Shown: positions 25,717 through 45,861 of the stretch, in pieces | How the letters are laid out: every line of letters begins with the position of its first letter | Numbering within the stretch: the stretch's first letter is position 1 | DNA from: Microcoleus sp. | Lineage (GTDB): Bacteria; Cyanobacteriota; Cyanobacteriia; Cyanobacteriales; Microcoleaceae | Direction: 5' to 3' | Assembly: GCA_042408215.1 (NCBI GenBank) | Contig: JAYFMW010000030.1 | Coordinates: forward strand, 512,001-576,000 | DNA length: 64,000 nt | Notes under the pieces: model-generated | Told to the model about the DNA's origin: nothing | The model's database searches: none | Seen by the model: the letters and a program-made list of their open reading frames with translations, nothing else | Program-made: the position numbers and the translations under genes

Positions 25717-26358
25717 TCAACGGAATTGCTCTGATTCCTTCGCGGACTCAAGACGGGAGTAATTCTTAACTTGAAGTTCTAAAATCTCCCGCGGAAGGCG
25801 GGATTGAATGTTAATGTTTTGAATCGTACTCAGCTCACCGTTAATATTTCTTAACAGTTTTAATTGACCTTTTGCTTGCAATTTTAATTCAAAACTTTGG
25901 GTGTCTACGGTCGTTTTATAAATGCTTTCTAGCACGTTAATCTGATTAATTATGTGAACCGTTGTGATTTCTTGGCTTTGATAGCTAGTAGAGGCAGTAA
26001 TGTTATACTCTTGCAGCAAGTCTTCGGAGTTAGTTAAGATAATCCCAAAGATGAGAGAGGCGAATTTTTCAACATTTTCTAAATTAGTGTCGTAGATCTC
26101 AATAAAAAACTCTTGCTCAAATTCCCGCATTACAGTTATTTCTTGGCGGTTTTCCTCTGGGTACTGCTTGAGAGATTTTAAGTTTCTCATGCTTTGATCT
26201 AGGGTAAACTTACCTAAATAAACACTAATTTGGGGAAATGGTTCTGAAGGAGATTCCCTTAACTGTTTAGTGGTAAAATGTTGGTCTGACTGAGGAATGT
26301 CTGCACTCAGTTCGGTTTTCAGCAGGTTGGCGATCGCCGTCAGTAGCTTATAAATCAT
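25717..26358 (-). CDS. Putative tail terminator/cap (DUF4255/Pvc16-N-like), last gene of the tail operon
   Basis: Position in the operon; N-terminal helix then P-x-ISVYL strand pattern; weak similarity only. Confidence 0.45.
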   Translation of the reverse strand: MIYKLLTAIANLLKTELSADIPQSDQHFTTKQLRESPSEPFPQISVYLGKFTLDQSMRNLKSLKQYPEENRQEITVMREFEQEFFIEIYDTNLENVEKFASLIFGIILTNSEDLLQEYNITASTSYQSQEITTVHIINQINVLESIYKTTVDTQSFELKLQAKGQLKLLRNINGELSTIQNINIQSRLPREILELQVKNYSRLESAKESEQFR

Positions 26359-26370
26359 AATCAATCAAAA

Positions 26371-26628
26371 TTAGCTTTGACTACTTTGGGGAGAGACTTC
26401 TCTAGCGGGGGTTTCAGAATCGAGAGCATAAGTATTTTCCGAGGGAGTGTGGATTGTATTGCTGTCAGCTTTGACCAGTTCTTCTTCCAACACTTGAATT
26501 GCACCAGCCATGCGAAGTAAAGTATCTCTCACATTGGCTTGTTTTGCCTCTAAATCCGCTAGGACTTTTTTACCCGATTCGTATTCGGCTTTGAGTTCTT
26601 GCAGACGTTGTTGGAGTTGTTGTTTCAT
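26371..26628 (-). CDS. Small coiled-coil protein of the tail operon
   Basis: LQQRLQELKAEY...TLLRMAGAIQVLEEEL heptad pattern. Confidence 0.7.
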   Translation of the reverse strand: MKQQLQQRLQELKAEYESGKKVLADLEAKQANVRDTLLRMAGAIQVLEEELVKADSNTIHTPSENTYALDSETPAREVSPQSSQS

Positions 26629-26715
26629 CACAGTTTTACATCAATTACCTACATCATATCGTTTCCGGTTGCATCGGAATGATAGCAACTCTGGACACTC
26701 CAAAAGCCCTTCTTC

Positions 26716-26955
26716 GTGTCAACTTAACGTCAAACCCAGTCAGAGAGTGTTGTTTGACGATTGGGTCCAGATCCCCCGCATTCTTGCCCCCTACTCAACC
26801 CCTACTCACACCCTACTCCCTTAAGAAGGGAAGTAGGGGAGTAGGGGGTGTGGGACAAGATTCCGATCAAAGTCCCCCTTCTTAAGGGGGATTTAGGGGG
26901 ATCTAGACTCGAATAAAAACCTGATTTATCAAGGGTTTTAGGCTTAAGTTGACAC
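26716..26955. mobile_element. MITE with TIR GTGTCAACTTAA...TTAAGTTGACAC
   Basis: Perfect 12-bp TIR; second copy at 36363-36569. Confidence 0.75.
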
Positions 26956-27049
26956 CTATGGGCAGTGCCGTTTCCCTACTCCAAAATAATCGTAGCACTC
27001 GCAGAGGGCTCCCAGCCATCGTCTTCGCTCGGATGTAACCATCGCCCGA

Positions 27050-27181
27050 TTAATGGTATCGGTCAATCCTGGACGTTTCTAGCCGGACGATTTCCTGCAT
27101 GGCTGCATTCCAGTCTGCCGATCGAACTGGATCGCCTGTTTTTTTGACTTCGGGTGTGAATTTAGTGCCGTTGTTGGTCAT
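27050..27181 (-). pseudogene. Truncated second tail-fibre gene (43 aa, N-terminal anchor only)
   Basis: MTNNGTKFTPEVKKTGDPVRSADWNAAMQEIVRLETSRIDRYH* aligns with the N-terminus of 27233..28156 (MTTNNGKFAPQHKKPGDLILSDEWNAGMQETVRLESAKVNR). Confidence 0.8.
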
Positions 27182-27232
27182 TGTTGGATTTTCCCAAAAT
27201 TGTTAATTATTTAACTTATTGTTGGTCATTAT

Positions 27233-28156
27233 TTATAGCTTCATAATGAAAGCAAGGGCATAATATGGAGGTCTGTTTTCGTGTGCTTGATTACCACCTA
27301 CAGTAGTAGTATCGAAGTCCCAGAGGGGAGAATCGTTATTATTTGCTGGGAAATTCCCACCCCCATCGATAGATGTGACAATGTGTGAATATCTGTGACT
27401 GTGGGCGGGCATTTGTGCAACGGTAAGAGTTACAGTAGCAGCACCACCTGTAGATGCTACTGCATAACTATTACCAGCACCTACAATAAATCTATCTCTC
27501 AAATCTGGTGTGCCATTTTGACCATTACAAAGCGCCCATCCTGTAGGAATTTGCTCGACAGGCCCGGACCACATCACAATTATTCCTTTGACAATCGCAC
27601 CGTCACCAATAAAAGCTGGCGCGACGATCGCATTATTCACAACCAAGTTCTTTGTAGAATGTCTTGAACTGATTGTGCCAAAAACAGTAATCAGATCTCT
27701 ATCTTCATTACCGAGTTCGACATTGCCCTCCATCTTTTGGATATCTTTCGATATCACCTCTCCGTCCACGGTAAGTTTGCCATATACCCGCACATCTTTG
27801 GCTTTAAAATCTTGATTTTCACTCCCTTGAACAGCCCTATCTACATAAGCTTTAACAGCTTTTTGAGTCGGAACAATAGTATCTCTATTATTGCTGAGAC
27901 TCTCATCATTAGAAAACTGATTGACAGCCACTCCATCGGCCAACTTTAAAGCACCTTTAACTTCTAATTGCACGCTAGTAACTGCTAATGCCGATTCGAT
28001 CGTCAGAGGGCCCTGTAAAGAATCCCCGCCCTTTCGGTTAACTTTCGCACTCTCTAAGCGGACTGTTTCCTGCATTCCCGCATTCCATTCATCAGACAAA
28101 ATTAAATCGCCTGGTTTTTTATGTTGGGGAGCAAATTTGCCGTTATTGGTAGTCAT
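27233..28156 (-). CDS. Tail fibre protein with collar-like C-terminal domain
   Basis: GIIVMWSG...IPTGWALCNGQNGTPDLRDRFIVGAG...HSH...HENRPPYYALAFIMK. Confidence 0.85.
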   Translation of the reverse strand: MTTNNGKFAPQHKKPGDLILSDEWNAGMQETVRLESAKVNRKGGDSLQGPLTIESALAVTSVQLEVKGALKLADGVAVNQFSNDESLSNNRDTIVPTQKAVKAYVDRAVQGSENQDFKAKDVRVYGKLTVDGEVISKDIQKMEGNVELGNEDRDLITVFGTISSRHSTKNLVVNNAIVAPAFIGDGAIVKGIIVMWSGPVEQIPTGWALCNGQNGTPDLRDRFIVGAGNSYAVASTGGAATVTLTVAQMPAHSHRYSHIVTSIDGGGNFPANNNDSPLWDFDTTTVGGNQAHENRPPYYALAFIMKL

Positions 28157-28191
28157 TATTTTTACCTATCCTGAATTTTTGAATCGCCAAT

Positions 28192-28707
28192 TTAAAAAAT
28201 GATTTCCCAAACTAAAGTCAGCTTGAAATCAGCCGTTTTAGTAATGTTGGGAAATACGACTCGATTGTACATAATTCCCCCTTGGGCGCTATTAAATAGT
28301 CCGGCTTCAGTCAAAGCTAGCGGTTGATTGGGGGGTTCGGCAAAGTCTAAGTCAACGCACAATCTCACCTTGCGATTTTTTTGTCTGACGGTTCCGCTTT
28401 CAACTTTAATCGGGATTTCATCGGCATCGCTTAAATCTCTGGCAAGATCCAGGGGTTTGACTTCTTTGCGAAATACTTCTTTTTGCAATGCGGTATCTTC
28501 AACTGGATTCACCGGATTACTCCCAGTACCGATCGCCAGATAACGGATCGGCTCGATTTTTTGATTTAAAAACATTTTCGCAACTAAATCTCGTCCGCTA
28601 TAGACGATGAAATTATTGGCTTTAACTTCATCGACAAGTTCACCTGCGGGATTAAATTGTTGGATAATCAATCGTCCTTTCATGTCCATTGCATCAGCCA
28701 TTTTCAT
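28192..28707 (-). CDS. Baseplate/fibre-attachment protein
   Basis: NFIVYSGRDL, LAIGTG, ALQKEVFRK, LTEAGLFN, LTLVWEIIF resemble tail-fibre N-terminal/adaptor proteins. Confidence 0.65.
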   Translation of the reverse strand: MKMADAMDMKGRLIIQQFNPAGELVDEVKANNFIVYSGRDLVAKMFLNQKIEPIRYLAIGTGSNPVNPVEDTALQKEVFRKEVKPLDLARDLSDADEIPIKVESGTVRQKNRKVRLCVDLDFAEPPNQPLALTEAGLFNSAQGGIMYNRVVFPNITKTADFKLTLVWEIIF

Positions 28708-28731
28708 AGTTTTAGTTTCCTCAATTGGTAG

Positions 28732-30768
28732 TTATTCAAAGCCGTTACCTGAGTCGAAATCGGTATAATCAAATACACCGGAGATTAAGAAATTATCGGT
28801 CATTTCATGGTAATTTTCGTCAGGGGCGGGTGGTGGGATAGAGGGAAAGCGATCGCCATAGTCAAATATAGCATAATCAAACACTCCAGTAGTTAATAAT
28901 TTCTCACTCATTTCGTGTCTAATGCCGTCGGGATAGGGAACTTTTAAGCCCAGAAGATTAAATTTTTCTTCGGCTATGTGAGTTTCCATAAAAGGCGATC
29001 GCACGACGGTTAACCTGATTTGTAAATCCTGGGTTTCTCGGAAAACTTTTTCATAATTAATCAGGGCCAAAACACCGGCACCTTTCACACGATCGATGAT
29101 ATTAGCAATTTGGTGTCGCGGATGGTCTGACGCTTCACCAAACTTATCAGAATATCCGGGAATATCCCAAGGAATTGTCACCTCAAACATCCCAGGATTA
29201 AGTTTGTAAATTCGCATCTCTAAATGGATGGCGACTTCAGCAAAACCTAGGGTACTGGAATCAAACTTTTGCCGATCGAATAAGCCGACAGGATAATCCC
29301 CGATAATTTGGGCTTCAAAGCGCCACCGAGAGTTACTGATTGGTAGTAATGGCGTGTTTTCTTGAGTGTGAAAAGGTTGTCCATTGACTAAGACGGTATT
29401 CCCTCGAAATAATAACTTATCACCGGATTTTATCCTGCCTTGGTAGCAGATAAAATTTCCCGTATCGAGATGAACTATTCGGGGATTATACAACCCTTCC
29501 ACAGGTAAAGTTGGTGGAACTTCTAAGAAAATTTCAATTTCCGATGGTTGGGGGTTGAGGCTGGCGGCGACAAACTCTTCAAACAACCTTAAAGGATAGT
29601 GATAGGCGATTATACCGAAGGAAGTATTCGGAGGACGTATCCAGGTTTTTTCCGGGTCAAATTCTTCGATCCGAATTTGCTTTTTGGCCGCTAAAGCAGC
29701 CTCTGAATCGCCTAAAATTCCCAAGTTAGCTGCGACTAAATCGAGAATCCCTTGACGAGTGGCTGCACCTTGCCGCAAAATCGCGATAATCCCTTTCAGT
29801 CTTTCCCGATAAGGGGCATAACTTTTTTCTAGTTCCCTGGGATAAGTGGCTTCTAACAGCAGGCGATTTTGTTTGATGCGATTGGTAGTATCTAGGGGAT
29901 CATTTTCGGGTTTGTAGGATTCTAAAAAGCGATTTAGTTCGGCAATTAAGGCTTGTTCAACTTCACCTTTTGATGGAATGTTGCTAGACTCAATATATTC
30001 GGGATAGGCTGCTTCTAATAGGAGTCGGTGCAGTCGCAGGCGATCGTCGTGATTAGTGGGCGCTGCTATGAGTTGTTTAACGCTTTCCAGCAGTAGTTGA
30101 CTCTGGAAATATGCCTTATTTTTGGCATAAAAATAGGGTTGGGTGAGTTGCTGGTTGAGTAGTGTTAAGAGTATTTCTTGTAGGGGTTGGGGTACGGATT
30201 CGCTACCGTCATATAGGCTTAAAAGTTGTTGGCTTTCAGAATTTAGTTGAGAGTGGAGATACTTACTGACAGGATGTTGGGCGACGAGAATTGAAATTGC
30301 TAATTGGGGTAGATTTTTAAAGGAATTTTGGTGAAAATTTGGCTGAGTTACTTGGTAGCGATCGAGTATTTGGTTAGTTTCGAGAGTCAGATTTTTGCGT
30401 AACTCCTGGGATACTATGTCGGTATTTGTTTGCAGTTTCGCGACGAAGCTATCAACATTTTTGATGGAACCGATGCTAAAGCGATCGCTAACCTGAATCA
30501 GTTGAGATGTACCACCCAAGGCTTCTAAATAGATGGTAAGTAATTTATCTAAATCGCCTTTTTGCTGACCAATAAAACCTTGAGAACCTTCATTAGTAGC
30601 GGTATCTACATGATGGGCGTGCATCACATCCAATAAGTCAGTTTCTGCTTGTTCGATGATGTAGCCAAAAACATCGATAAATTGATATAGCACACTTTCG
30701 ACATTTTGGGTGTCGTAAAAGTGGGGTAAGCGACTGGCGATGTTGAGGGTTTTACCGAGTTTTTCCAT
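28732..30768 (-). CDS. Baseplate wedge protein (gpI/gp7-like) with inserted helical repeats and C-terminal FD-rich repeats
   Basis: RLPHFY, PYRERLKGII...GAATRQGI, IDRVKGAGV, GVFDY repeats; follows baseplate J. Confidence 0.7.
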   Translation of the reverse strand: MEKLGKTLNIASRLPHFYDTQNVESVLYQFIDVFGYIIEQAETDLLDVMHAHHVDTATNEGSQGFIGQQKGDLDKLLTIYLEALGGTSQLIQVSDRFSIGSIKNVDSFVAKLQTNTDIVSQELRKNLTLETNQILDRYQVTQPNFHQNSFKNLPQLAISILVAQHPVSKYLHSQLNSESQQLLSLYDGSESVPQPLQEILLTLLNQQLTQPYFYAKNKAYFQSQLLLESVKQLIAAPTNHDDRLRLHRLLLEAAYPEYIESSNIPSKGEVEQALIAELNRFLESYKPENDPLDTTNRIKQNRLLLEATYPRELEKSYAPYRERLKGIIAILRQGAATRQGILDLVAANLGILGDSEAALAAKKQIRIEEFDPEKTWIRPPNTSFGIIAYHYPLRLFEEFVAASLNPQPSEIEIFLEVPPTLPVEGLYNPRIVHLDTGNFICYQGRIKSGDKLLFRGNTVLVNGQPFHTQENTPLLPISNSRWRFEAQIIGDYPVGLFDRQKFDSSTLGFAEVAIHLEMRIYKLNPGMFEVTIPWDIPGYSDKFGEASDHPRHQIANIIDRVKGAGVLALINYEKVFRETQDLQIRLTVVRSPFMETHIAEEKFNLLGLKVPYPDGIRHEMSEKLLTTGVFDYAIFDYGDRFPSIPPPAPDENYHEMTDNFLISGVFDYTDFDSGNGFE

Positions 30769-30773
30769 GACAA

Positions 30774-33284
30774 TTAACCTCCGGTAATTTCCACGATAAT
30801 TTGTAGGTTATCCCCGCTGAGATTGAGGGGTTCTAGTTGGGCGCGTTCGATAATCCGCATCGGGATATCCTGCTGGGTAAAAATGCTTTCCCGCGCCGTA
30901 AGTTCTAAAGTATCTAGGGTATAATCTGCCCCCCGCAGAAAAATTCGGGTAACATCAATGAGTTGTGCTTTGTTGTCACCGTCAGGAATCAAGGTTTGCA
31001 AGGTGGCTAGGGAAAGATTGTTAGCCCGATCGCGAATTAATGATAGCAAGTTAGTTCGCAATTGCTCGTAGTCGAGATTTTCGCCCAGATTCAAACTCGG
31101 CAACTGTTGGGTAAAACTGGGGGTAAACAGACTGGTTAAAGTCTCTTTCATGGCGGTTTTTAGCTGTTCTGGATTGATATTTTCCGGTGGTAATCCGGTG
31201 GTATTCAGTCTCAGTTTTAACTTGCTAATGGCGATCGGCACTACCTGGACATCACTATCGATCGCAAAATCAGTGGCCAACTGGGTTTTTTCAAATGGTT
31301 CCACCCGAATTTCTTTTTTCTGAACATCTAGGCGATCGCGAGCATTTTCTAAATCTAATACCTGAAAATCTCCTAATTTCCAATTGACATCAAGCACCGA
31401 TTCAACGTCAAGTGCCCGATTGACAAATTTTTCAATTTCGATATTTTCTTCCGGCTTTAGCTGTTCCAGATAATCGCTCAATTCTTGTCTGACTTTGGTT
31501 AATACTGTCTGTTTTTCCAAAGCAGTGATGGTAAGCGGCAATATCAGTTTAATCGCACCACTAATTCTCAGGAAATTAGAGAATATAAAAGTTTTTCCTA
31601 GCTTGCCTTTTTCAACAAAACTCACCTCTACTGTTTGGTCATCAAAACTCATTTTGGGATTCCATAAATGGGGATTCATCCACACTTCGACTTCGGCATT
31701 TAGTTGAGCTTTAATCGCACTGACACTAATACTTTCACCCACTAATAGACGCTGGAAATAGGTTTGCAGTGTTTCGAGGAAAGTATTGTGAGTTTCCTGG
31801 GTTAAACTTGTGGCTTTTACTTGCACATCTACAGTTAAAGATTTAATTTCCGAAGCAACGCGGATGGATTTAACAGTGAATTTTTCCAGAATATCTGCTT
31901 CCAATCGCTTCACAGTCTTCACAGTGGAAGCATAGGAATCGACTTCTGGTTTTTTCCCTACTTGGCGCGTCGTTTTCAGAGCAAAATCTAATAAATCGCT
32001 GACGTTTTGACAGTCTAAAATTTTGCGAGTAAGTTGGGATATCAACAGCGGTTGTCCCATTTTCTGAGTTTTGAGGTGGGCGGCGATCGCCTTTTCTACC
32101 TGTTCCTCAATTTGTATCCTTTCCGCAGCAGATATCCGCAAATTTGAATTTAATTCAATGCGGAAAACACCATCAATTTCAATGGCATTCGCTGGCTTTA
32201 AAATCGCATAAATTCCCGCAGCCCTTACCCGTTCAATCTCCTGTTTGATTTGGCTAACTTTATTGGTATCTTCAAAGTCTATCCCATCGACGAATACTTC
32301 AATAACACCAAACTCCCGCAACTCGATCGGTTCACTATTACTGAGATTAAAACTAAGATCCTTGCGTAATGGTTCCCACTGCGTAGTATAACTTTGGTTT
32401 AATTCTCCGGCTTTTCCCGGTATCGATGCTTGAACACTCACTTCTACCGTTTCACCGGTAAAATTGATGCTTTCCGTTGTGATAAATTGTTTTCTAGTAG
32501 TGGTTTCCAGAACAATAGTTAATTCTGTCCCTCTGGGAATGTGAAGGGGCAATTTTTCCGCTGATACTGGCGTACTAGACAGACTGACTTTTCCTTTCGC
32601 ATTATGAAAGTTTTCTCTAACCTTAACTTCCCTAACTCCCGGTAAACTCAACAGGGCATTTTCAATCGATGTTGTATTGGCATTACTAGCAGCAATCAAA
32701 GCTTTTTTAGCCCGTTCCCGCAGTTGTTCGTCTGTCTCCCGCAGCTTACCAGTAAAGACAATTGCTTCGGGATTATCAACTGTTTTTACCCCCGGTATCG
32801 GCTGGGGCATGATTTTTACAGTTCCGGCTTTTGTAACTTCTGTTTCTCCTGGCTGTATGGCTTGTACCCGCACTTTGATCGATGTTTCCGTGGGGGGAAT
32901 AATTTGCGCTTCAATGGTTTTGTAAGCTTTTTTCGGTGATTCTTCCTTATCTTCTGTGGTGACTAATGTTCCGATGGGAATCGTGATATTTTCATCCAGT
33001 CCCAAATCGCGATCGAAAGTAACTATTCCGGTAGCATAATCTGGTTCGCCGCGTTTAATCCCTAAAATCGCGACTACTTTATCTAGATCCACTTCGGCGG
33101 CGGTATCCACATAAGCAGATAGGTAAACCCGCTGCATTTCTTCGTACAAAATCGCCATTTCATAAGCGAAGGATTCGTACAGGGTGCGAACCACACTTCC
33201 GGTTTGAAAGTCGCTGACGGTGGAGACGGTGCGATCGCGCATCGCCTCAAATATTTGGGTAAAATTCTTCTGTTCAAAAACCAT
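30774..33284 (-). CDS. Baseplate J/gp47-like protein, extended (836 aa)
   Basis: DFQTGSVVRTLYESFA, AYVDTA...LDKVVAILGIKR, ETDEQLRERA, RAAGI. Confidence 0.88.
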   Translation of the reverse strand: MVFEQKNFTQIFEAMRDRTVSTVSDFQTGSVVRTLYESFAYEMAILYEEMQRVYLSAYVDTAAEVDLDKVVAILGIKRGEPDYATGIVTFDRDLGLDENITIPIGTLVTTEDKEESPKKAYKTIEAQIIPPTETSIKVRVQAIQPGETEVTKAGTVKIMPQPIPGVKTVDNPEAIVFTGKLRETDEQLRERAKKALIAASNANTTSIENALLSLPGVREVKVRENFHNAKGKVSLSSTPVSAEKLPLHIPRGTELTIVLETTTRKQFITTESINFTGETVEVSVQASIPGKAGELNQSYTTQWEPLRKDLSFNLSNSEPIELREFGVIEVFVDGIDFEDTNKVSQIKQEIERVRAAGIYAILKPANAIEIDGVFRIELNSNLRISAAERIQIEEQVEKAIAAHLKTQKMGQPLLISQLTRKILDCQNVSDLLDFALKTTRQVGKKPEVDSYASTVKTVKRLEADILEKFTVKSIRVASEIKSLTVDVQVKATSLTQETHNTFLETLQTYFQRLLVGESISVSAIKAQLNAEVEVWMNPHLWNPKMSFDDQTVEVSFVEKGKLGKTFIFSNFLRISGAIKLILPLTITALEKQTVLTKVRQELSDYLEQLKPEENIEIEKFVNRALDVESVLDVNWKLGDFQVLDLENARDRLDVQKKEIRVEPFEKTQLATDFAIDSDVQVVPIAISKLKLRLNTTGLPPENINPEQLKTAMKETLTSLFTPSFTQQLPSLNLGENLDYEQLRTNLLSLIRDRANNLSLATLQTLIPDGDNKAQLIDVTRIFLRGADYTLDTLELTARESIFTQQDIPMRIIERAQLEPLNLSGDNLQIIVEITGG

Positions 33285-33295
33285 AATCAAACTTC

Positions 33296-33760
33296 TTAAT
33301 TTCCAACTATCGATATATTCAGAGTCAGCGGTGTATCTAAATCTACCACTTTTACGATGATTTTAGCTTTTAAAGTGTTAGGGTCTTTCAAGCGAGATGG
33401 CGGTTCAAAAACAATATCAATTATCTCATCTATTCTGCTTTCTTGATGCAAACATTCCCGGATATAAATATTGGCTAAACCTTGGGTTTTTATGTTGTTT
33501 AGTTCGCCCACCAACAGATATAAGCGCGAACCATAATCGGGATGTCCTAAACTAGCTAGTTCTCCTTTGCGGGTATAAAGTCGATTTAAAATCGCTTGAC
33601 TTAAATTATCTATTTTTGTTACCGTTGCTAAGTCGCGATTCTCGGCTTCTAAATCTACGTTGTTCCAATCGGCAATTCTGAGCAATTGACGATTCTGCGA
33701 TTCTAAATCTCTGGAGTAGAGAGTTAGTTTTAAATCGAACTTTTGTAAATCATCATCCAT
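33296..33760 (-). CDS. GPW/gp25 baseplate wedge protein
   Basis: NLSQAILNRLYTRKGEL..LGHPDYGSRLYLLVGE. Confidence 0.88.
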   Translation of the reverse strand: MDDDLQKFDLKLTLYSRDLESQNRQLLRIADWNNVDLEAENRDLATVTKIDNLSQAILNRLYTRKGELASLGHPDYGSRLYLLVGELNNIKTQGLANIYIRECLHQESRIDEIIDIVFEPPSRLKDPNTLKAKIIVKVVDLDTPLTLNISIVGN

Positions 33761-33766
33761 AATTTA

Positions 33767-34291: not shown

Positions 34292-34444
34292 CTTCTTAAT
34301 ATTTGGGGTGGAAAGTTGACTGAACAAACGAGCATAGGATAAAGGCAAAAAAACCCGGTTTCTTAGAAAAATAGTGGCTCTCCACCAGAGATATCCAGGC
34401 AGAAACCGGGTTTTTGGCCCCGCCTGCGTCCAGGAATGGAGCAA

Positions 34445-36265: not shown

Positions 36266-36362
36266 CAAAATCACCCCTATACTGGTAAAGCATTTACAGC
36301 AGATTGCAGGTTTATGAAGTACATCCCAGAGCGAGCGATCCCCGTAGGGAAACGGCAATGCT

Positions 36363-36569: not shown

Positions 36570-36610
36570 GGCGAAAGCCTTTGTCCCTACTTTAACATCA
36601 AAATCACCCC

Positions 36611-40174: not shown

Positions 40175-40298
40175 AAATTTAATTCCCAAGGTAAAGATAA
40201 AATGTTTTTTTTTGAGCAGATTTCCAGATTTTCGGGGAACAATTGAAATCTAACAGGTGGCTGGTATTTACTCCTAGGTCTACTTGAATATTTCAGCA

Positions 40299-40883
40299 CT
40301 AAATTTTAAAAAGTGCTTTCAATCCAGCAGTCGCTTGGTCAAAGTTTTTAGTGGCTTCTTTCACAGGTTCTAAACCTGTTTTCAAAGGTGCGATCGGGTT
40401 AGTAATTTCTGGCAAATTCCCCATTTGCAAAGCATCAGTCAGACTCACAACATCCATCAGTTTAGCAGCATCAAGCTTAATTTTTTGATCTAGATTAGAA
40501 ACTCCTGGGGATGCAATGGGTTTGGGAGGTTCAACATACTCTTGAACAATCAGTCGATAGCTAAATTCATCGGGCGATCGCGCAAGTTGCCACACTTCCA
40601 TTTTTTCTAATACAACTTGGCTAAAATAGGCTTGACCGACTATTTCCGCCACAAAGTCAACGGCTTTTCGCTGTTTGTGGATTTTTCGCAGAAAATCTAA
40701 ATCATCCCCTGCTTTTTGTCCGTAAAAAATTCCGCTAATTTCCAATTGTACCGAATCCCTTCCCAAATCTTGCACCAGATTTCCCAATTTACCAGGAATC
40801 CGATGAGTCACCCAATCCGCTTGTTCTAGGGTGACAATTTTATGCACTTTATTGAGTTCAACTTTTCCTAATTTGATGGCCAT
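40299..40883 (-). CDS. Tube initiator (Mu gpN DNA-circularization N-terminal / gpU-like)
   Basis: HRIPG..GNLVQDLGR...LEISGIFYG...FSYRLIVQEY. Confidence 0.72.
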   Translation of the reverse strand: MAIKLGKVELNKVHKIVTLEQADWVTHRIPGKLGNLVQDLGRDSVQLEISGIFYGQKAGDDLDFLRKIHKQRKAVDFVAEIVGQAYFSQVVLEKMEVWQLARSPDEFSYRLIVQEYVEPPKPIASPGVSNLDQKIKLDAAKLMDVVSLTDALQMGNLPEITNPIAPLKTGLEPVKEATKNFDQATAGLKALFKI

Positions 40884-40885
40884 AA

Positions 40886-42052
40886 TTACTCCCCATAAAA
40901 TCGGCGATATTCTCGATTTATTTCTTGGGCGATCGCCTCTAAAATTGTCTCCATCTCTAGTTCGGGATGGCGATCGCTATGCAAAGATGCTTCTACCATA
41001 GCGTACCTATTTCTACTATCATCAGCTATTTTCGTCCTATTTTCCACCTCACTCTCCTGTGGTTCCAGCCATCCACCCTTGGCTGCTACAAATTCTTCGG
41101 AAATATCCGAAACATAACTCATTTTTTCCGATGTTTCCATCTGATAATCGGCTAATTCACTTTCGGAAAACAGGAGATTTTCTGAAGAATCATGTTTGAG
41201 GAAATCCGCCTCAATTATATGTTCTTGATTGGGCTGCGATACCAAAAAAGCCGACAAATCTTTTAAGCCTTTCATTCCCAGTGAATTTTGGGCAAAATCC
41301 CTCTGAATGTGCTCTGTTTGTTCTGTCGCCTTATCCAATTTTGGTAGATTGACATTCTGGGCAAATTGTGTTTTTATTTCCCTTGGTTCATCCACTACAG
41401 ACAAAACTTCTGAAGTTGGGTCTGAATCAGATTTATAGAAGGCTAATTCCTGAGATAAAACTCGATCGCCTCCCTCAGCATCAGATTCATCAAAACCTAA
41501 ATCCCTAGGATTAATCCTTGTATCTACCAGGGGAATTTCTGCCACAGAATCTGAATAATTCCCCAGCGCAGGATGATTTTTTTGCCCTTCTCCCGGCGCC
41601 ACAACTCTCTGGGATATCGCTTGAGGTTTTGACGAAGTATCCCCCAGAGATAAAGATGGCGATCGCCTTTTTGCATAACTAGATTGGCTATTAGCAGTAG
41701 GGATTGGTCGATCGGGATTAACCAAAGACTCGTATCTTCTCCAAGTTTCTAAGTAAGGATGAATTTTTGGGCGATCGTCCGATGTAGTTTCCTCCCCTAG
41801 ATTGATATTATTTAAACTTCCCAAATCAGGCGGAATAAACCCTGTAGTCAGCAATTTTTCCCAAACTTTAGATTCATTGATGACTACCTCGAATCGCTCA
41901 GTTTCCTGATACAAAAGCGCGATTTCCGCCCAATCTTCGCTACTCAAAAGATTGTCAGTCAACCATCCACTCGTATAGTTACACAATAAAGCTTGAAATT
42001 CATTGCTCAGATTGATGCCAAGATCTTTTAAACTTTCATCACCCATCTTCAC
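40886..42052 (-). CDS. Acidic low-complexity tail-operon protein with conserved-looking C-terminal helix
   Basis: GTG start after GAGGAG RBS (alternative ATG 42046); ends ETILEAIAQEINREYRRFYGE; directly downstream of the chaperone genes. Confidence 0.6.
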   Translation of the reverse strand: MKMGDESLKDLGINLSNEFQALLCNYTSGWLTDNLLSSEDWAEIALLYQETERFEVVINESKVWEKLLTTGFIPPDLGSLNNINLGEETTSDDRPKIHPYLETWRRYESLVNPDRPIPTANSQSSYAKRRSPSLSLGDTSSKPQAISQRVVAPGEGQKNHPALGNYSDSVAEIPLVDTRINPRDLGFDESDAEGGDRVLSQELAFYKSDSDPTSEVLSVVDEPREIKTQFAQNVNLPKLDKATEQTEHIQRDFAQNSLGMKGLKDLSAFLVSQPNQEHIIEADFLKHDSSENLLFSESELADYQMETSEKMSYVSDISEEFVAAKGGWLEPQESEVENRTKIADDSRNRYAMVEASLHSDRHPELEMETILEAIAQEINREYRRFYGE

Positions 42053-42088
42053 TTTGTCGCTCCTCTGTACTTCACTAAAACAGGACTT

Positions 42089-42660
42089 ATACCAATTTAA
42101 TGGGTCGTTGCACATATCTCGATCCCCCTAAATCCCCCCCTCCCCTAGGGCGTGACTTTCAGACTACGCCTTAAGATCTTAGATCCCCCTACATCCCCCT
42201 TAAAAAGGGGGACTTCCAGACTCTTTCCCCCCCCTTATTAAGGGGGGCTGGGGCCGATCTTAATGGGTCGTTGCACATATCTCGATCGCCCTAGCTCCCC
42301 CCCAAGGGGGGAAGGGGGACTTTGAGAAGAATCTTGTCCCACACCCCCTACTCCCCTACTCCCCTTATTAAGGGGGGTTATACCAATTTAATGGGTCGTT
42401 GCACATATCTCGATCCCCCTAAATCCCCCTTAACAAGGGGGACTTTGAGAAGAATCTTGTCCCCCCCTTATTAAGGGGGGTTAGGGGGGATCGAAATTCT
42501 ATGCAGCCTCATAAAAAACAGGTATTAGGGGGGATCGAAATTCTATGCAGCCTCATAAAAAACAGGACTTACGCACGCGGAGCCAAAAACCCGGTTTCTA
42601 CATCAATATCTCTCGGCTCAAGCCACGATTTTCAAAGAAACCGGGTTTTTTTGGCCTTAG
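42089..42660. repeat. Composite stack of MITE/REP-like repeats inside the tail operon
   Basis: Three copies of AATGGGTCGTTGCACATATCTCGATC plus an AAACCCGGTTT/AAACCGGGTTT palindrome. Confidence 0.8.
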
Positions 42661-42698
42661 TCCTATAAAAAAAGCCATCCCCACATCGCCACATCCCC

Positions 42699-43180
42699 TC
42701 ATTTTTCCGAGCGATTTTCCTCATCTAACAGTTGTAGATACATTGACACCTGCGCCATTGTCATCGATCCCACTTGTTGAGGAGTCCAACCAAAAGCACG
42801 CGCTAATCGAAAGCTAGCTAACACCAGTGGCGAATTACTTAACTCGAAATCATTTTTTTTTCCGTCAATCCGCTAATTTGCCGAATCTCACCGATCAGAA
42901 AGTTAACTAATCCTAGATTCATGCTTTTAACTTGTTCCAAGGAGAGACTAGGTTGTACTAGGGATTCTTTAATCATCAACAAAGGAATCAGGGCGGGATC
43001 GCTTTTCGCTGCTTTCATAATCAGCCCAAAAGCCCCAATCGTCAGCGGGCGCAATTGCACCACTAATTCCCGCTCTTTATTAGTGCTACTTGTGCTATGT
43101 TCCAATACCTCTGGGGGAATCGCGACATCAAAAATAATTTCTGAACCACCTAGCAGTTCTTCCGGCGTTAAAAATTGCAT
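42699..43180 (-). CDS. Tail assembly chaperone gpGT-like fusion via predicted -1 programmed frameshift (160 aa)
   Basis: A9 slippery run at 42853-42861; -1 frame gives NDFELSNSPLVLASFRLARAFGWTPQQVGSMTMAQVSMYLQLLDEENRSEK*. Confidence 0.8.
42839..43180 (-). CDS. Tail assembly chaperone gpG-like (113 aa)
   Basis: Follows the tube gene; VQLRPLT..., ends ISGLTEKK typical of frameshifting chaperones. Confidence 0.8.
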   Translation of the reverse strand: MQFLTPEELLGGSEIIFDVAIPPEVLEHSTSSTNKERELVVQLRPLTIGAFGLIMKAAKSDPALIPLLMIKESLVQPSLSLEQVKSMNLGLVNFLIGEIRQISGLTEKKMISS

Positions 43181-43384
43181 TTGAGGGTGAGGATTTAGGA
43201 AAAGTTTAAGTCAGGAATTACGCAGAAAAAGTCAAGGGTTCCGGTTTTTTTTACCGAGGTGATAGTTGTCACTAGATTAGTCCTGGACGCATGGGGACTC
43301 AGAAACCGGGTTTTTTACGAAAATATGCGATCGAGCCAGCACCCAAGGTAAAAAACCTGGTTTCTGTTGTTGATAGGTAAACTA

Positions 43385-43891
43385 TCAACCTGTCTCCTCA
43401 GAACTAATGCGTAAAGCTTTAAACGTCACTCCTTCCATCACAAAATCATCTTCAGGTAAAGTAAAACTCCAGCTTTCAAACTTGACCCCAAAGACTGTCA
43501 GTGTACTGCTGTTATCTGGTAAAGCTGGATTTTTCAGCGAGATGACAATATTAAAAGAAGGCTGAGGAATTGCGCCGGTAGGAGGAGGACTCGTCGCCCC
43601 ATCACCTAGGAGTAAGTGTAACAGGGCTCCATTGATGTGCGCGCGATCGATAAAACCCGAAACGCTAATATTACCCGGACGTAATTCTGTAGCAAAGCGT
43701 TTTCCTAATTCGTGATAGGGTCGTAATTCGTTTTCTACCTTAACCTGGACATTTTGTAAACGTCCCACTACGCTAGATAATTCGTACTTCCCGATCAAAG
43801 CTTCTGCTAATTTCCCCTCAACAGATTCTTGATTATCGACAGCTAAAACCAGCGAAGCATCCGAGCCGCGAAAAACATTGACATTAGGCAT
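43385..43891 (-). CDS. Tail tube protein
   Basis: Directly after the sheath; PYHELGKR...PGNISVSGFIDR, VKFESWSF..PEDDFVMEGVTFKA. Confidence 0.8.
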   Translation of the reverse strand: MPNVNVFRGSDASLVLAVDNQESVEGKLAEALIGKYELSSVVGRLQNVQVKVENELRPYHELGKRFATELRPGNISVSGFIDRAHINGALLHLLLGDGATSPPPTGAIPQPSFNIVISLKNPALPDNSSTLTVFGVKFESWSFTLPEDDFVMEGVTFKALRISSEETG

Positions 43892-43958
43892 AATTTTCTC
43901 TTCTATTCAGGGCAAAAATTCTTGAAATTCCCGTTTTTGCGATCGATGTATCCTTGAT

Positions 43959-45026
43959 TTATCCTAGATACATTGTCACTTGAATAAAATCAATACTGAA
44001 CGTCGGTTGCAGAATCATTTTCACGGCAACTTCCCCAGCAATTTCTTGTCGGCGGGTAGCCGAAACTTCCAGTTGATAACTTACCAGAGATTCGCTGTCT
44101 ACCATACTGGTAAGAAACGCATCCAAGGTGGCTTTCATTGCTCCTCGCACGCGATCGTTATTCAGCTTGCCAATATAAGGATCGCAAGAGGAGCGCACTC
44201 CATAAATTGCATAGTCAACAATGCGGCGCGTGGTGATTTGATTCCAAGGACTATCGGCTGTGGTGATGCCTTTGACGATTCGATATCCACTGCGGGCTTC
44301 TACCGTCAAGACTTTTTTTTGCACCAGTTCTTTTAGCTGAGCATTGTTAAACTCAGTGGTGATCCCTTCAATACTCAGAGTTTTATTAGTGGGGCTAGCT
44401 TGCACGTTCAAAGAAGCAATTAAGCCAGCTATAGCAGCGGCTAAATAACCCCCAGGAAGTTTGTGTTGCTTGCCTTTAGCCGTTAACAAAATTCCGGGTG
44501 CTGTAAATATCAGCCGACCTCGATCGTCGCTGAGATTGTGGCCGCTAATTTGCTCTAAATCGTCTTTACCGTTTTTAAACCCACTACCAATAATTCCAAT
44601 TCTTTCGCGTTTAATTTCGGCCGTAGTGTTCAAATGTCCTTTGAGGGCATCTACCATCCCAGCTTGGTTAGCATCTTGCCCCGCTAGGACAACTATATTG
44701 ACAATTTTGTTTTCTAATAGTGCTAAACTTTCTTGATAAGCATCAGTGGTTGCTCCCGAAGTTCGCACTGCATAAACCGTCTGTCCGCCATTTTTATAAA
44801 TCAATTCCAAGGCGCGAACTAAAGTTAGTTCGTCTTGCTCTCCGCCTTGCCATTCATTGCTCTCACCAAAAATTTCTTTAGCTTCCGAAAGACTACTGAG
44901 TAATGTTACTTCATTCTCAGTACCCTGACTGGCAGTACCAACAATACCAATATTCCCTGTAGCAACTCCACTGGGCGCAATTAAGCCTTCGGGGCGCACT
45001 TCAACGTAAGTGCCAGGTAAAATCAT
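43959..45026 (-). CDS. Contractile tail sheath protein (original start probably ATG 45477, now cut off by an insertion)
   Basis: ILPGTYVEV, IGIVGTA, SPTNK, KGITT...ITTRRIVD...YIGKLN...QPTFSIDFI. Confidence 0.9.
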   Translation of the reverse strand: MILPGTYVEVRPEGLIAPSGVATGNIGIVGTASQGTENEVTLLSSLSEAKEIFGESNEWQGGEQDELTLVRALELIYKNGGQTVYAVRTSGATTDAYQESLALLENKIVNIVVLAGQDANQAGMVDALKGHLNTTAEIKRERIGIIGSGFKNGKDDLEQISGHNLSDDRGRLIFTAPGILLTAKGKQHKLPGGYLAAAIAGLIASLNVQASPTNKTLSIEGITTEFNNAQLKELVQKKVLTVEARSGYRIVKGITTADSPWNQITTRRIVDYAIYGVRSSCDPYIGKLNNDRVRGAMKATLDAFLTSMVDSESLVSYQLEVSATRRQEIAGEVAVKMILQPTFSIDFIQVTMYLG

Positions 45027-45465
45027 AAAAACCTCACGGGAGCTTGGAAACCCAGTGGCTTGAGCCTAGGGAGGAAAAGCGATACGGGATGCTTTAGCGT
45101 CCCATGAATATTTTCAAAATCCATAGCTATCAAAAAATGGGTTGAAACCCGTCTTTCTAAGACGGTTTTATATTTCCCCTTTCGGGGTAGAGGGGTATGG
45201 TTGCCCCTCTAGGAAGATATGGTTGTCTCCATTTTTCCCTTTCGGGTAAAGTTCGCTTCGCCAATGTTTTAAGAGCTTTTTAAACCTGCAACACTGTTTC
45301 AGTGACCTTAAAACTGTTTAATTGCAGATGACAGAGCGGAAAACTAGCGTCGCATTCAAGGAGTGTCTTGACTCAAAAAACGTAGTCAGCTAAGACTTAG
45401 GCTGGTCAGAATGGCTTGTTTGATTACTCTTGCAAGCCCCGTCCCTTAAGGGCGGGGTTCCTGAC
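45027..45465 (-). mobile_element. Non-autonomous IscB-type IS200/IS605 element (omegaRNA/HEARO, no ORF), copy 1
   Basis: Plus-strand junctions TCAT|AAAAACC...CCTGAC|TGT; subterminal hairpins; homologous to 58809-59195. Confidence 0.82.
45235..45465 (-). ncRNA. HEARO/IscB omegaRNA scaffold, copy 1
   Basis: GTCAGGAACCCC...GGGGCTTG...TGACCAGCCTAAG...CTACGTT...GACAC...GCTAGT...GCTCTGTC...TTAAACAG...AAGGTCACTG..ACAGTG...ATTGGCGAAG. Confidence 0.78.
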
Positions 45466-45861
45466 TGTTTGAGCCATAAAATATCTTTTGTATTTCTCAG
45501 AACTATTTATCTCACATGAATGTTATTTTGAATAAAAAATGTAATAAAACTTATTATTGTTCAAGTTGGGTGATGGTTTCAAACTGAATCTAAGAACTAA
45601 GCTACCGAAGATGATGTGATCTCAAATCCGGTAGCATCGGAATTAATATTACTCACAGCCAGGACACGGCAGTGCCGTGTCCCTACAATTAATCACGGTA
45701 GTCCAAGGACACTGCCGTGTCCTCTCTCTATATCATTCCGGTGCAACCGGAATTGATGTGAGTCATTGAGATTTTTTAGTAAAACTTAAAAAAGTCAAAA
45801 GTAAGAAAGCTTTCAGTAAAAACAAGGTTTTTTAGTCTCAACTTTTAACTTTTGACTGGTT

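What the first reader, a model, noticed from the sequence alone, without database searches (positions are those of the whole stretch)
25717..45477. Resident headless contractile-tail system of non-canonical (non-Afp/PVC) type
Seen: ~17 co-oriented genes in phage-tail order (sheath, tube, frameshifting chaperone, acidic protein, tube initiator, 1187-aa helical protein, hub, spike, spike-associated protein, gp25, baseplate J, gpI-like, adaptor, fibre, fibre remnant, coiled coil, putative terminator). They sit between host genes with no capsid, portal, terminase, integrase or lysis genes, and contain at least 15 HIP1 sites plus host-type repeats. Established: Afp/PVC/MAC-type eCIS usually encode an AAA+ ATPase (Afp15) and a PAAR tip; R-type tailocins usually carry lysis genes. 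None of these is seen here, and the sheath is unusually short (355 aa). Inference: a long-domesticated, distinct CIS lineage in a filamentous cyanobacterium, with unknown target, cargo and release route.
Basis: partly seen in the sequence, partly recalled or inferred. Interest (0 to 1): 0.85.

Follow-up and report, generated by a model that had tools for sequence, protein, structure and literature searches.

The report
Headless contractile phage-tail gene cluster
A 20-kb block of 16 genes in a filamentous cyanobacterium builds a phage-like contractile tail without any head, and it belongs to a very conserved, apparently unstudied family of such tail-only clusters found in many bacterial phyla.

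Summary
Window 25,717-45,026 (minus strand) carries 16 co-oriented tail genes: sheath, tube, chaperone with a -1 frameshift, a variable acidic protein, tube initiator, tape measure, hub, spike, spike-associated protein, gp25, baseplate J, a 678-aa wedge partner, adaptor, fibre, coiled coil and terminator. Host genes flank it. Two congeners have an empty site. Seven head or packaging families gave no match in the 99.98%-complete genome.

It is not a local oddity. The same 16-gene unit, always starting at the sheath, sits in unrelated host contexts in Cyanobacteriota, Chloroflexota, Bacteroidota, Spirochaetota and other phyla. Sheaths are 50-98% identical and tubes 51-99%. Deposited phages reach only about 30% for the sheath and give no match for the tube. 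Genes are under purifying selection, and the frameshift site is conserved in 37 of 51 loci.

By gene content it is R-tailocin-like, not Afp/PVC-like. It lacks lysis genes and has no identifiable parent phage. Relatives carry PAAR in the slot after the spike.

Verdict: real, a new variant of a known kind. Target and release route are unknown.

The parts
43959..45026 (-). Tail sheath, 355 aa. This is the minimal form, without the insert domain.
   Evidence: PF04984, PF17482 and PF22671 above cut-off. phrog_279 E 3.8e-40. It is the only sheath gene in the genome. The family alignment shows an insert of 100-200 aa in relatives after about residue 95.
43385..43891 (-). Tail tube, 168 aa
   Evidence: Position after the sheath. 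Weak Phage_tube_2 match, 20 bits, below cut-off. 51-99% identical in related loci. No match in 50,697 phage records. No PDB match above noise at E<=1.
42699..43180 (-). Tail assembly chaperone, 113 aa (42,839-43,180), plus a -1 frameshift extension (42,699-42,872). The slippery A9 run is at 42,853-42,861.
   Evidence: Overlapping ORFs and sequence. The same arrangement is in L015. A slippery heptamer plus an extension ending GWTPQQV..MTMAQVS.YLQLL is present in 37 of 51 loci.
40886..42046 (-). Variable acidic 'slot' protein of about 386 aa. The ORF as called runs to 42,115 through repeat sequence.
   Evidence: pI 4.56, computed on the 409-aa ORF as called. Conserved N-terminal part of about 80 aa and C-terminal REYRRFYG motif, with a variable low-complexity middle, in 12 loci of several phyla. 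No Pfam, PHROG or NCBIfam family. Atlas gave nothing.
40299..40883 (-). Tube initiator / baseplate-tube junction protein, 194 aa (Mu gpN N-domain type)
   Evidence: PF07157 DNA_circ_N, 26.2 bits against a cut-off of 21. Conserved in position. Listed as one ORF of about 1,350 aa that also covers the tape-measure position in two Bacteroidota loci.
36611..40189 (-). Tape measure protein, 1,192 aa
   Evidence: PHROG tape-measure families, best E 4.2e-14. Length is 1,059-1,253 aa in the loci where it is a separate whole ORF.
35296..36358 (-). Baseplate hub (gpD/gp27-like), broken by a one-base insertion at about 35,568-35,570. The N-part ORF is 35,390-36,358 and the probable true start is about 36,265. 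The intact C-terminal 90 codons are readable in another frame, 35,296-35,568.
   Evidence: phrog_196 E 1.8e-9. The protein alignment diverges after about residue 263. The DNA alignment shows one extra base against L015 and G022. The base is left out in the one contig of run X1 that covers the place, depth 30.1 of 30.1. Translations.
34445..35311 (-). Central spike, 288 aa: OB domain, beta-helix and a C-terminal HTH..GAPCP end
   Evidence: PF04717, 28.2 bits. TIGR01644 phage_P2_V and VgrG models below cut-off. The Herpetosiphon homologue lacks the last about 50 residues.
33767..34291 (-). Spike-associated protein, 174 aa (ORF as called 225 aa), in the slot that holds PAAR in relatives
   Evidence: Invariant C36, C53, C60 and H68 in 10 sequences. 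AF2 model pLDDT 83.5. Only weak fold matches, mostly to beta-helical parts of spike and VgrG proteins, Foldseek best E 3.4e-3 and VIA Z<=5.7. No BLAST similarity to the PAAR protein of L041.
33296..33760 (-). gp25-like sheath initiator, 154 aa
   Evidence: phrog_975 E 1.7e-16. PF10934 31 bits and PF04965 17.8 bits, both below cut-off.
30774..33290 (-). Baseplate J (gp6-like) wedge protein, 838 aa
   Evidence: PF04865, 85.1 bits. phrog_6 E 6e-53. The listed phage matches are 26-32% identical over at most 35% of its length.
28732..30768 (-). 678-aa baseplate wedge partner. 'gpI-like' rests on position only.
   Evidence: No Pfam, PHROG or NCBIfam family. Conserved after J in 5 distant loci. PDB profile search gave noise only. 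Atlas lead to Tail_P2_I at 0.80 only.
28192..28707 (-). 171-aa adaptor / fibre-attachment protein
   Evidence: phrog_5417 E 8.8e-21 and a weak match to a tail-fibre PHROG over its own N-terminal part. Conserved before the fibre genes in 5 distant loci.
27233..28156 (-). Tail fibre, 307 aa
   Evidence: phrog_8469 E 6e-31. Collar and Gp10_C matches below cut-off. Only 54% identical to the G022 orthologue, dS 1.57. Fibres in relatives carry other tip domains.
27050..27202 (-). Remnant of the N-terminus of a second fibre gene, 50 codons
   Evidence: The open frame reads like the fibre's first 45 residues and is followed by a repeat insertion.
26371..26631 (-). 86-aa protein, helix-prone by composition (coiled coil not predicted with any tool), conserved before the terminator
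   Evidence: Sequence. 53-70% identical in Herpetosiphon, Nostoc, Bacteroidales and Leptospirales loci. No family.
25717..26364 (-). Tail terminator (cap), about 190-213 aa
   Evidence: AF2 model pLDDT 75. Foldseek PDB gave 40 matches at E<=1e-3, led by tail terminators: T5 p142 1.6e-6, lambda gpU, T4 gp15, pyocin R2 collar and PVC cap. 1 of 10 homologues has a weak Pvc16_N match, E 0.062.
42080..42666 (.). MITE-like host repeats in an intergenic gap. Further copies lie at 26,713-26,963 and 36,365-36,572.
   Evidence: Repeat families D2-D6. Absent at this place in G022; the gap is about 460 nt shorter in L015. Contig depth there is about 100 times that of the genes.
25514..25623 (.). Left flanking (GTTAACA)n repeat with a shared 3' tail. 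Its partner lies at 45,888-46,074.
   Evidence: Family D1, 96% identical over 82 nt. It belongs to a dispersed repeat with many copies in congeners. It is not in the empty-site gap of G006, read in full. The gap of G318 was compared by BLAST only and gave no match there.

Best explanation
The cluster is one member of a widespread, self-contained family of head-less contractile tail particles. It is a phage-tail-like contractile injection device of the R-tailocin kind.

Inferred working model:
1. The hub, spike and spike-associated protein, with gp25, J, the 678-aa partner, the adaptor and the fibres, form a baseplate.
2. The tape measure is held by the chaperone and its frameshift product. It sets a tube of roughly 180 nm, from 1,192 aa at about 1.5 Å per residue, a rule recalled from phage work.
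3. The tube initiator starts tube polymerisation, and the sheath polymerises on gp25.
4. The terminator, encoded last, caps the particle.
5. Fibre binding to a target cell triggers sheath contraction, which drives the tube and spike through the envelope.

Shown here: the parts list, the absence of a head module, and conservation of the unit. Inferred: particle formation, firing, an extracellular target and killing. Release would need cell lysis or death by means not encoded in the cluster. In this particular assembly the hub gene carries a one-base insertion, so this copy may be non-functional.
For: - Complete tail parts list.
- Conserved -1 frameshift, 37 of 51 loci.
- The same 16-gene order in Moorena, Nostoc, Herpetosiphon, Bacteroidales and Leptospirales.
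- No gene family recurs upstream of the sheath. The largest family among 566 upstream ORFs occurs in 5 loci.
- Neighbours are ordinary host genes that differ between genera.
- Empty site in G318 and G006 between the same two host genes.
- Six head or packaging families absent from a 99.98%-complete genome.
- dN/dS is 0.08-0.62 for the 14 genes comparable with G022, against 0.12 and 0.36 for two host genes.
- Fibres are the most variable part and carry different tip domains in relatives.
- Contigs from two metatranscriptome runs of different studies cover parts of the cluster, longest over sheath and tube.
Against: - No holin, endolysin or regulator lies in or next to the unit, here or in the 5 distant loci read through. 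Characterised R-tailocins usually have them, which I recall rather than tested.
- No parent phage lineage was found.
- The hub frameshift may mean this copy makes nothing.
- The RNA-library contigs may be DNA carry-over, and contigs cannot show transcript levels.
- No particle, target or activity has been seen.
Confidence: 0.6

Rival explanations
1. In this genome the cluster is a freshly inactivated copy. The one-base insertion in the hub gene is real, the hub lacks its conserved C-terminal 90 residues, and no particle is assembled. The family may still be functional elsewhere.
For: One extra base against L015 and G022. The base is absent in the one X1 contig that covers the place. The conserved C-terminus is readable only in another frame. 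That C-terminus includes residues invariant in the 5 homologues aligned.
Against: Everything downstream of the insertion is identical to L015 in the stretch aligned. That fits a very recent change or an assembly error equally well. I laid no run that I could identify as the window's own sample. The other 13 genes comparable with G022 are intact.
Confidence: 0.3
2. It is an effector-delivering injection system in the manner of eCIS or T6SS. The particle carries protein cargo, such as the variable slot protein or tip-bound toxins, into bacterial or eukaryotic cells, and does not kill by puncture alone.
For: PAAR genes follow the spike in 3 of 3 distant loci scanned, 33-48 bits against a cut-off of 27. 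An RHS-repeat protein is inserted between tape measure and hub in one KSB1 locus. The slot protein has conserved ends and a variable, low-complexity middle. The terminator is encoded at the operon's end, as I recall for Afp16/Pvc16.
Against: No toxin domain was found in the window's cluster or flanks. There is no AAA+ loading ATPase. No PAAR is in this genome. Here the spike has its own C-terminal end domain. The slot protein has no known fold or family.
Confidence: 0.15
3. It is a cytoplasmic contractile system that fires inside its own producer and mediates stress-induced death of cells in a filament. This is as described for the Streptomyces CIS and proposed for the Anabaena thylakoid-anchored CIS.
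For: No lysis or export genes. Many hosts, by record title, are filamentous or multicellular: Microcoleus, Moorena, Nostoc, Herpetosiphon, Flexifilum, Saprospiraceae, Thiomargarita. A caspase-domain gene follows the terminator in one Bacteroidales locus. The abstracts for the Streptomyces systems appeared in a search listing.
Against: Fibre genes with swapped receptor-binding-type domains, such as H-type lectin, Peptidase_G2/S74 and FGE-sulfatase fold, and very fast fibre divergence, point to outside targets. The family also occurs in unicellular or colonial Microcystis and in soil Acidobacteriota and Gemmatimonadota. No membrane-anchor gene is conserved. The host list was not tested against a null.
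Confidence: 0.12
4. It is a decaying prophage remnant without function, and its head genes have been lost by chance.
For: Tail-only content. MITE insertions in three intergenic gaps and a fibre-gene remnant. A frameshifted hub. Patchy presence in the genus, 2 of 36 other species.
Against: The same tail-only unit, with the same first and last gene, recurs in at least nine phyla. Purifying selection. Conserved programmed frameshift. No integrase or att site. The repeats spare the coding regions.
Confidence: 0.05

Closest known systems
R-type tailocins (R-pyocin of Pseudomonas aeruginosa, diffocin, carotovoricin and others)
   Same: Single sheath, tube, chaperone pair made by a -1 frameshift, tape measure, separate hub and spike, gp25/J/I-type wedge, fibres and a terminator of the gpU/collar fold. 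No head genes and no AAA+ ATPase. The pyocin R2 sheath matches the family profile (E 3.2e-6), and the pyocin R2 collar matches the terminator model (E 3e-4).
   Different: No lysis cassette or regulator. No identifiable parent phage: the best deposited phage sheath is 29.5% identical and the tube has no match. The family crosses at least nine phyla with sheaths at least 50% identical. The terminator is encoded last. The tube initiator precedes the tape measure. There are extra conserved genes: the slot protein, the 86-aa protein and the spike-associated protein. Relatives have PAAR.
Afp/PVC/MAC-type extracellular contractile injection systems, including AlgoCIS, the Anabaena thylakoid-anchored CIS and the Streptomyces CIS
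   Same: Chromosomal, head-less and horizontally spread. The cap gene sits at the end of the operon. The PVC cap is among the fold matches of the terminator (E 5.8e-4). Relatives have PAAR.
   Different: One sheath gene, not two or three. The tube is not a PF06841 tube. No AAA+ ATPase. A frameshifting chaperone is present. Hub and spike are not fused into a VgrG. eCIS-linked NCBIfam models are far below cut-off, TIGR02243 26 against 155.8 bits. [quoted passage not shown] Herpetosiphon aurantiacus DSM 785, a carrier, is in the genome list of the 2019 eCIS survey. Its name appears in none of the other four supplement files held, and one file was cut when stored.
Tail modules of Mu-like, P2-like and PBSX-like myoviruses
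   Same: Gene order sheath, tube, chaperone, then hub, spike, gp25, J, I and fibre. DNA_circ_N domain of Mu gpN. P2 gpV-type spike model, below cut-off.
   Different: No head, neck or packaging genes here or upstream in related loci. Sequence identity to deposited phages is at most about 32%. In IMG/VR only 3 of 22 confirmed loci reach 52% or more. All three are contigs of 14-24 kb with the sheath near one end, and the other 19 are at most 34%.
Haloarchaeal contractile injection system (PDB 9ezm, Halogeometricum borinquense)
   Same: It is the best solved-structure match of the sheath profile, E 8.5e-11. The paper was identified by a search listing and its abstract.
   Different: A distant match only. 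That system is described as a cell-bound type six secretion system. No other component was compared.

Membership tests
R-type tailocin (phage tail-like bacteriocin) | Contractile sheath, tube and baseplate genes of myovirus type | tested here: met
R-type tailocin (phage tail-like bacteriocin) | No capsid, portal or terminase genes with the tail genes | tested here: met
   None in the window. Six families absent genome-wide. PF06074 is uninformative because its control was silent.
R-type tailocin (phage tail-like bacteriocin) | Dedicated lysis cassette (holin or endolysin) and regulator in the cluster. This feature is recalled from pyocin and carotovoricin work. | tested here: not met
   No such family in the 16 proteins or flanks, nor next to 5 distant loci.
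R-type tailocin (phage tail-like bacteriocin) | Released particles that kill related strains | not testable with these tools
   Needs EM and killing assays.
Afp/PVC-type eCIS | T4 gp19-type tube proteins (PF06841), usually several paralogues | tested here: not met
   One tube gene, with only a weak PF18906 match.
Afp/PVC-type eCIS | AAA+ ATPase (Afp15/Pvc15) in the cluster | tested here: not met
   No AAA domain in the 16 proteins or adjacent genes. A genome-wide search was not attempted, because AAA+ is not specific.
Afp/PVC-type eCIS | PAAR tip protein | tested here: not met
   No PF05488 in the cluster or the genome. It is present in the same slot in L041, L066 and L079.
Afp/PVC-type eCIS | Pvc16/Afp16-type cap encoded at the operon's end | tested here: inconclusive
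   The terminator fold matches many phage terminators and also the PVC cap. Pvc16_N matches at E 0.062 in 1 of 10 homologues.
Integrated (defective) prophage | Integrase, att repeats, or residual replication, head or lysis genes | tested here: not met
   No such family. The flanking direct repeat is a dispersed host repeat.
Cross-phylum 16-gene tail-only family (defined here) | Same gene order from sheath to terminator, sheath at least 50% identical, host genes on both sides | tested here: met
   The window sits in a 16-row clade (15 cyanobacterial loci plus the window) with SH-aLRT 96.

The most novel reading that the evidence does not exclude
The family is an old, autonomous lineage of contractile injection machines that stands between phage tails and the Afp/PVC/T6SS world. 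It has phage-style assembly (frameshifting chaperone, tape measure, split hub and spike). It also has CIS-style autonomy (cap gene in the operon, PAAR or other tip modules, occasional Rhs cargo, no parent phage). It spreads across phyla and recombines within genera. Its conserved but unknown parts, namely the slot protein with fixed ends and a variable middle, the 86-aa protein and the Cys3-His spike-associated protein, would be a new cargo or trigger module. Its role in mat-forming filamentous bacteria would be strain-level warfare or controlled cell death.
Probability: 0.25. Interest if true: 0.8.

Novelty: new variant of a known kind. Interest (0 to 1): 0.62.

Why it matters
Surveys of contractile injection systems select for Afp-like parts and set aside clusters that look like phages or R-type bacteriocins (passages). 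Work on tailocins has centred on a few Proteobacteria and Firmicutes. A tail-only family could therefore have gone unnoticed, even with near-invariant sheath and tube, present in bloom- and mat-forming cyanobacteria (Microcoleus, Microcystis, Moorena, Nostoc), Chloroflexota, Bacteroidota and others.

If the particles are made, they could shape strain competition in toxic cyanobacterial mats. They would also offer a compact, naturally retargetable puncturing device whose fibre tips are already swapped in nature.

My library searches found no paper on a cyanobacterial R-type tailocin or on this family. Subscription journals and bioRxiv supplements were not searchable.

Tried and rejected
- Rhapidosome idea. 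I recalled that rod-shaped 'rhapidosomes' were reported in Saprospira and other gliding bacteria, which overlap this family's hosts. A 2024 preprint, read as passages, assigns them to a subtype-iv T6SS, so I dropped the idea.
- Spike-associated protein as a PAAR homologue. There is no BLAST similarity, and the fold searches were not significant. It stays 'unknown, in the PAAR slot'.
- Slot protein. Atlas features gave nothing, best 0.82.
- 678-aa protein, adaptor and tube. Profile searches of the PDB gave noise only. Atlas gave a 0.80 lead to Tail_P2_I for the 678-aa protein.
- Promoter and terminator scans were not above the shuffled expectation, 47 found against 39.3 ± 5.7 and 17 against 20.0 ± 4.7.
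- Flanking (GTTAACA)n repeats as att sites. They are a dispersed host repeat. The repeat is not in the empty-site gap of G006, which I read in full. The G318 gap gave no BLAST match to it but I did not read it.
- Gain versus loss in the genus could not be settled.
- Earlier findings of this scan: two look-ups returned nothing.
- RNA runs X14 and X15 leave large parts of the cluster uncovered. This is not evidence of silence.
- I did not run complex prediction, because no binding claim is made.

Full report
**What is there.** Between 25,717 and 45,026 the minus strand carries 16 consecutive ORFs.

Pfam and PHROG scans name most of them:
- Sheath, 43,959-45,026: PF04984, PF17482 and PF22671 above cut-off; phrog_279 E 3.8e-40.
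- Tube initiator with the N-domain of Mu gpN, 40,299-40,883: PF07157, 26.2 bits against a cut-off of 21.
- Tape measure, 1,192 aa, 36,611-40,189: phrog_305 E 4e-14.
- Hub, 35,390-36,358: phrog_196 E 1.8e-9.
- P2-V/VgrG-type spike, 34,445-35,311: PF04717, 28.2 bits.
- gp25-like protein: phrog_975 E 1.7e-16.
- Baseplate J: PF04865, 85 bits; phrog_6 E 6e-53.
- Adaptor: phrog_5417 E 9e-21.
- Fibre: phrog_8469 E 6e-31.

The 113-aa ORF after the tube is a tail chaperone. Its last codons hold an A9 run at 42,853-42,861. That gives the slippery heptamer A AAA AAA, and the -1 frame stays open for 57 codons, 42,699-42,872.

The last gene, 25,717-26,364, had no family. An AlphaFold model from 10 homologues (pLDDT 75) gave 40 Foldseek matches in the PDB at E<=1e-3. 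They are led by tail terminators: T5 p142 at 1.6e-6, lambda gpU, T4 gp15, the pyocin R2 collar and the PVC cap.

**No head.** The flanks are host genes: response regulator, CheX-like and GGDEF genes on one side, and a 355-aa ORF and holA on the other.
- In two congeners, G318 and G006, the GGDEF gene and the 355-aa ORF lie 0.65-1.2 kb apart, with unrelated DNA between them. The 20.3-kb block from about 25,500 to 45,770 is thus a clean presence/absence polymorphism.
- The genome is 99.98% complete and has one sheath gene.
- It has no match to HK97 capsid, Phage_portal, Terminase_6N, TerL_ATPase, Terminase_3 or SPP1_portal. A Mu-portal search also found nothing, but its control was silent too.
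- No PAAR is in the genome.

**The cluster is a member of a large family.**
- A search of 5.8 billion proteins returned 2,493 sheaths at E<=1e-5 among the 8,000 candidates scored. The best 120 were 53-100% identical. Where the sources give a name, they come from cyanobacteria, Herpetosiphon, Longimicrobium and Bacteroidota.
- In one genome per GTDB species, 199 pattern-matched stretches encode relatives. The 80 kept have titles from Cyanobacteriota, Bacteroidota, Chloroflexota, Pseudomonadota, Gemmatimonadota, Acidobacteriota, Myxococcota, Fibrobacterota, Spirochaetota and KSB1.
- The core of the sheath is nearly invariant. Length differences come from an insert of 0, about 100 or about 200 aa after residue 95. 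The 355-aa protein here is the insert-free form.
- The tube is 51-99% identical across these loci.
- Reading on through five distant genomes showed the same order to the end: gp25, J, the 678-aa partner, adaptor, fibre(s), the 86-aa protein, terminator. The five were Herpetosiphon aurantiacus, Moorena, Nostoc, a Bacteroidales MAG and a Leptospirales MAG.
- A variable ORF of 330-720 aa always sits between the chaperone and the tube initiator. It has a conserved N-terminal part of about 80 aa, a low-complexity middle and a C-terminal REYRRFYG motif.
- Upstream of the sheath nothing is conserved. Among 566 upstream ORFs, the largest family occurs in 5 loci, at varying places and strands. The neighbours scanned are metabolic, transport or regulatory host genes.

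**Distance from viruses.**
- The best sheath match in 50,697 deposited phage records is 29.5% identical.
- The listed matches to baseplate J are 26-32% identical over at most 35% of the protein.
- The tube has no match at all.
- In IMG/VR, 3 of 22 confirmed loci are at least 52% identical. All three are contigs of 14-24 kb with the sheath near an end. The other 19 are at most 34%.
- A tube profile run over 1.84 billion representatives found only 253 clusters at E<=1e-3 and 35 at E<=1e-30. The family is compact and does not grade into phage tubes.
- The sheath profile matches three PDB sequences at E<=1e-3: a haloarchaeal CIS sheath (8.5e-11), the phi812-type sheath and the pyocin R2 sheath (paper for 9ezm by listing and abstract).

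**Signs of function.**
- Against the syntenic copy in G022, all 14 comparable genes are open, with dN/dS 0.08-0.62. Most lie at 0.1-0.3, and the slot protein is highest. Two host genes give 0.12 and 0.36.
- Against Kamptonema the values are 0.07-0.49.
- A slippery heptamer followed by a net -1 extension of at least 25 codons is present in 37 of 51 loci. Of these, 35 use A AAA AAA, one AAAAAAG and one TTTGGGG. In nine rows of the listing, mostly members of the most distant clade, the chaperone ORF is longer and no slippery heptamer was found.
- Contigs of two metatranscriptome runs from different studies match parts of the cluster at 93-99% identity. The longest lie over tube and sheath: 43,384-44,761, 43,120-44,480 and 44,555-45,050. 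This is only a hint, because DNA can be present in RNA libraries.

**A defect in this copy.** The hub protein departs from all 5 aligned homologues after about residue 263.
- The DNA has one extra base at about 35,568-35,570 relative to L015 (sheath 98% identical) and G022.
- The one contig of run X1 that covers the place lacks the base, depth 30.1 of 30.1. X2 does not cover the site.
- The conserved C-terminal 90 residues are intact in the other frame.
- This is either a very recent inactivation or an assembly error.
- MITE-like repeats at 26,713-26,963, 36,365-36,572 and 42,080-42,666 lie between genes. They inflate three ORF starts but break no coding region.
- A 50-codon remnant of a second fibre gene lies at 27,050-27,202.

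**History in the genus.** Only 2 of 36 other species of the genus have the sheath: 2 of 24, and 0 of 12 further ones.
- By purD identity the carriers G009 (93%) and G022 (89%) are not the window's closest kin. G005 and G008 are at 96% but are incomplete genomes, and most of the genus sits near 89-90%.
- Within the cluster, dS against G022 is 0.17-0.23 for sheath to slot, 0.3-0.77 for the rest and 1.57 for the fibre. Two host genes give 0.44-0.49. This mosaic fits recombination between species better than quiet vertical descent.
- HIP1 density is 0.84 per kb against 0.70 genome-wide, and G+C is 41.9% against 45.1%. These do not prove long residence, since a cyanobacterial donor would bring HIP1 too.
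- In a quick sheath tree of 65 rows the window falls in a 16-row clade, 15 cyanobacterial loci plus the window itself (SH-aLRT 96). Cyanobacteriota as a whole need at least 4 changes on starred branches. Some cross-phylum near-identities look like binning errors.

**Classification.** By content it sits with R-type tailocins. It has one sheath, a frameshifting chaperone, a tape measure, a split hub and spike, fibres and no ATPase.

It fails the Afp/PVC features I could test: tube family, ATPase, PAAR here, and eCIS NCBIfam models.

It differs from characterised tailocins in five ways:
- It has no lysis or regulatory genes.
- It has no parent phage.
- It has a cross-phylum range.
- Its terminator is encoded last and its tube initiator comes before the tape measure.
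- It has extra conserved genes of unknown role.

Relatives show CIS-like tip modules:
- A PAAR gene follows a shorter spike in Herpetosiphon and two other loci, 33-48 bits.
- One KSB1 locus has an RHS-repeat gene between tape measure and hub.
- In the cyanobacterial clade the spike has its own C-terminal HTH..GAPCP end.
- There the PAAR slot holds a 174-aa protein with invariant Cys36, Cys53, Cys60 and His68. Its model (pLDDT 83.5) has only weak resemblance to the beta-helical parts of spike and VgrG proteins.

**Literature.** Searches for tailocins or contractile injection systems with cyanobacteria, Microcoleus, Herpetosiphon or Microcystis found no description of this family.
- A 2023 review, read as passages, lists only the thylakoid-anchored CIS for cyanobacteria.
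- In the 2019 eCIS survey's supplements, Herpetosiphon aurantiacus DSM 785 appears in the list of genomes scanned and in none of the other four files held. One of the five files was cut when stored.

**Verdict.** This is a real head-less contractile tail cluster from a distinct, widespread and apparently uncharacterised lineage. It most likely makes a tailocin-like puncturing particle aimed by variable fibres. Release route, target and the roles of three conserved unknown proteins are open. The copy in this assembly may be disabled by a single-base insertion in the hub gene.

Noticed in passing
window 16326-17522 (-), 49214-50329 (+), 51846-53600 (+): Three TnpB-like genes with the Cas12f1-like TNB domain; the first two also carry OrfB_IS605. 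One lies 140 bp from holA, near the cluster's upstream flank.
   Followed up: no
window 25514-25623 and 45888-46074: Tandem heptamer repeats (GTTAACA)n with a shared 3' tail bracket the 20-kb cluster as a direct repeat, 96% identical over 82 nt. They belong to a dispersed repeat family with many copies in congeners. They could have served recombination, but this was not shown.
   Followed up: partly
L079 and L083 (one Bacteroidales MAG contig): Two complete clusters of this family lie in tandem, with sheath genes about 22 kb apart in the same orientation.
   Followed up: partly
L090:17008-19326 (KSB1 MAG) and L104:8925-9734 (Bacteroidales MAG): An RHS-repeat protein is inserted between tape measure and hub in one relative. 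A caspase-domain protein directly follows the terminator in another. Both are possible accessory or cargo genes.
   Followed up: no
L047 vs L050; L058 within the Microcystis clade: Near-identical sheaths occur in MAGs labelled as different phyla: Oscillatoriales against Gammaproteobacteria, and Crocinitomicaceae among Microcystis. These are most likely binning errors, so counts of phyla should be read with care.
   Followed up: no
L064:13684-17736 and L035:13119-17165: In two Bacteroidota loci one ORF of about 1,350 aa matches the tube initiator and also covers the position of the tape measure, and it is followed by an extra gene of 763-937 aa.
   Followed up: no
window 46112-47179 (-): A 355-aa acidic host ORF next to the cluster has no Pfam family, only a weak GltJ-like NCBIfam hit at E 0.0027. 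It is present at the empty site in congeners, so it is not part of the cluster.
   Followed up: partly
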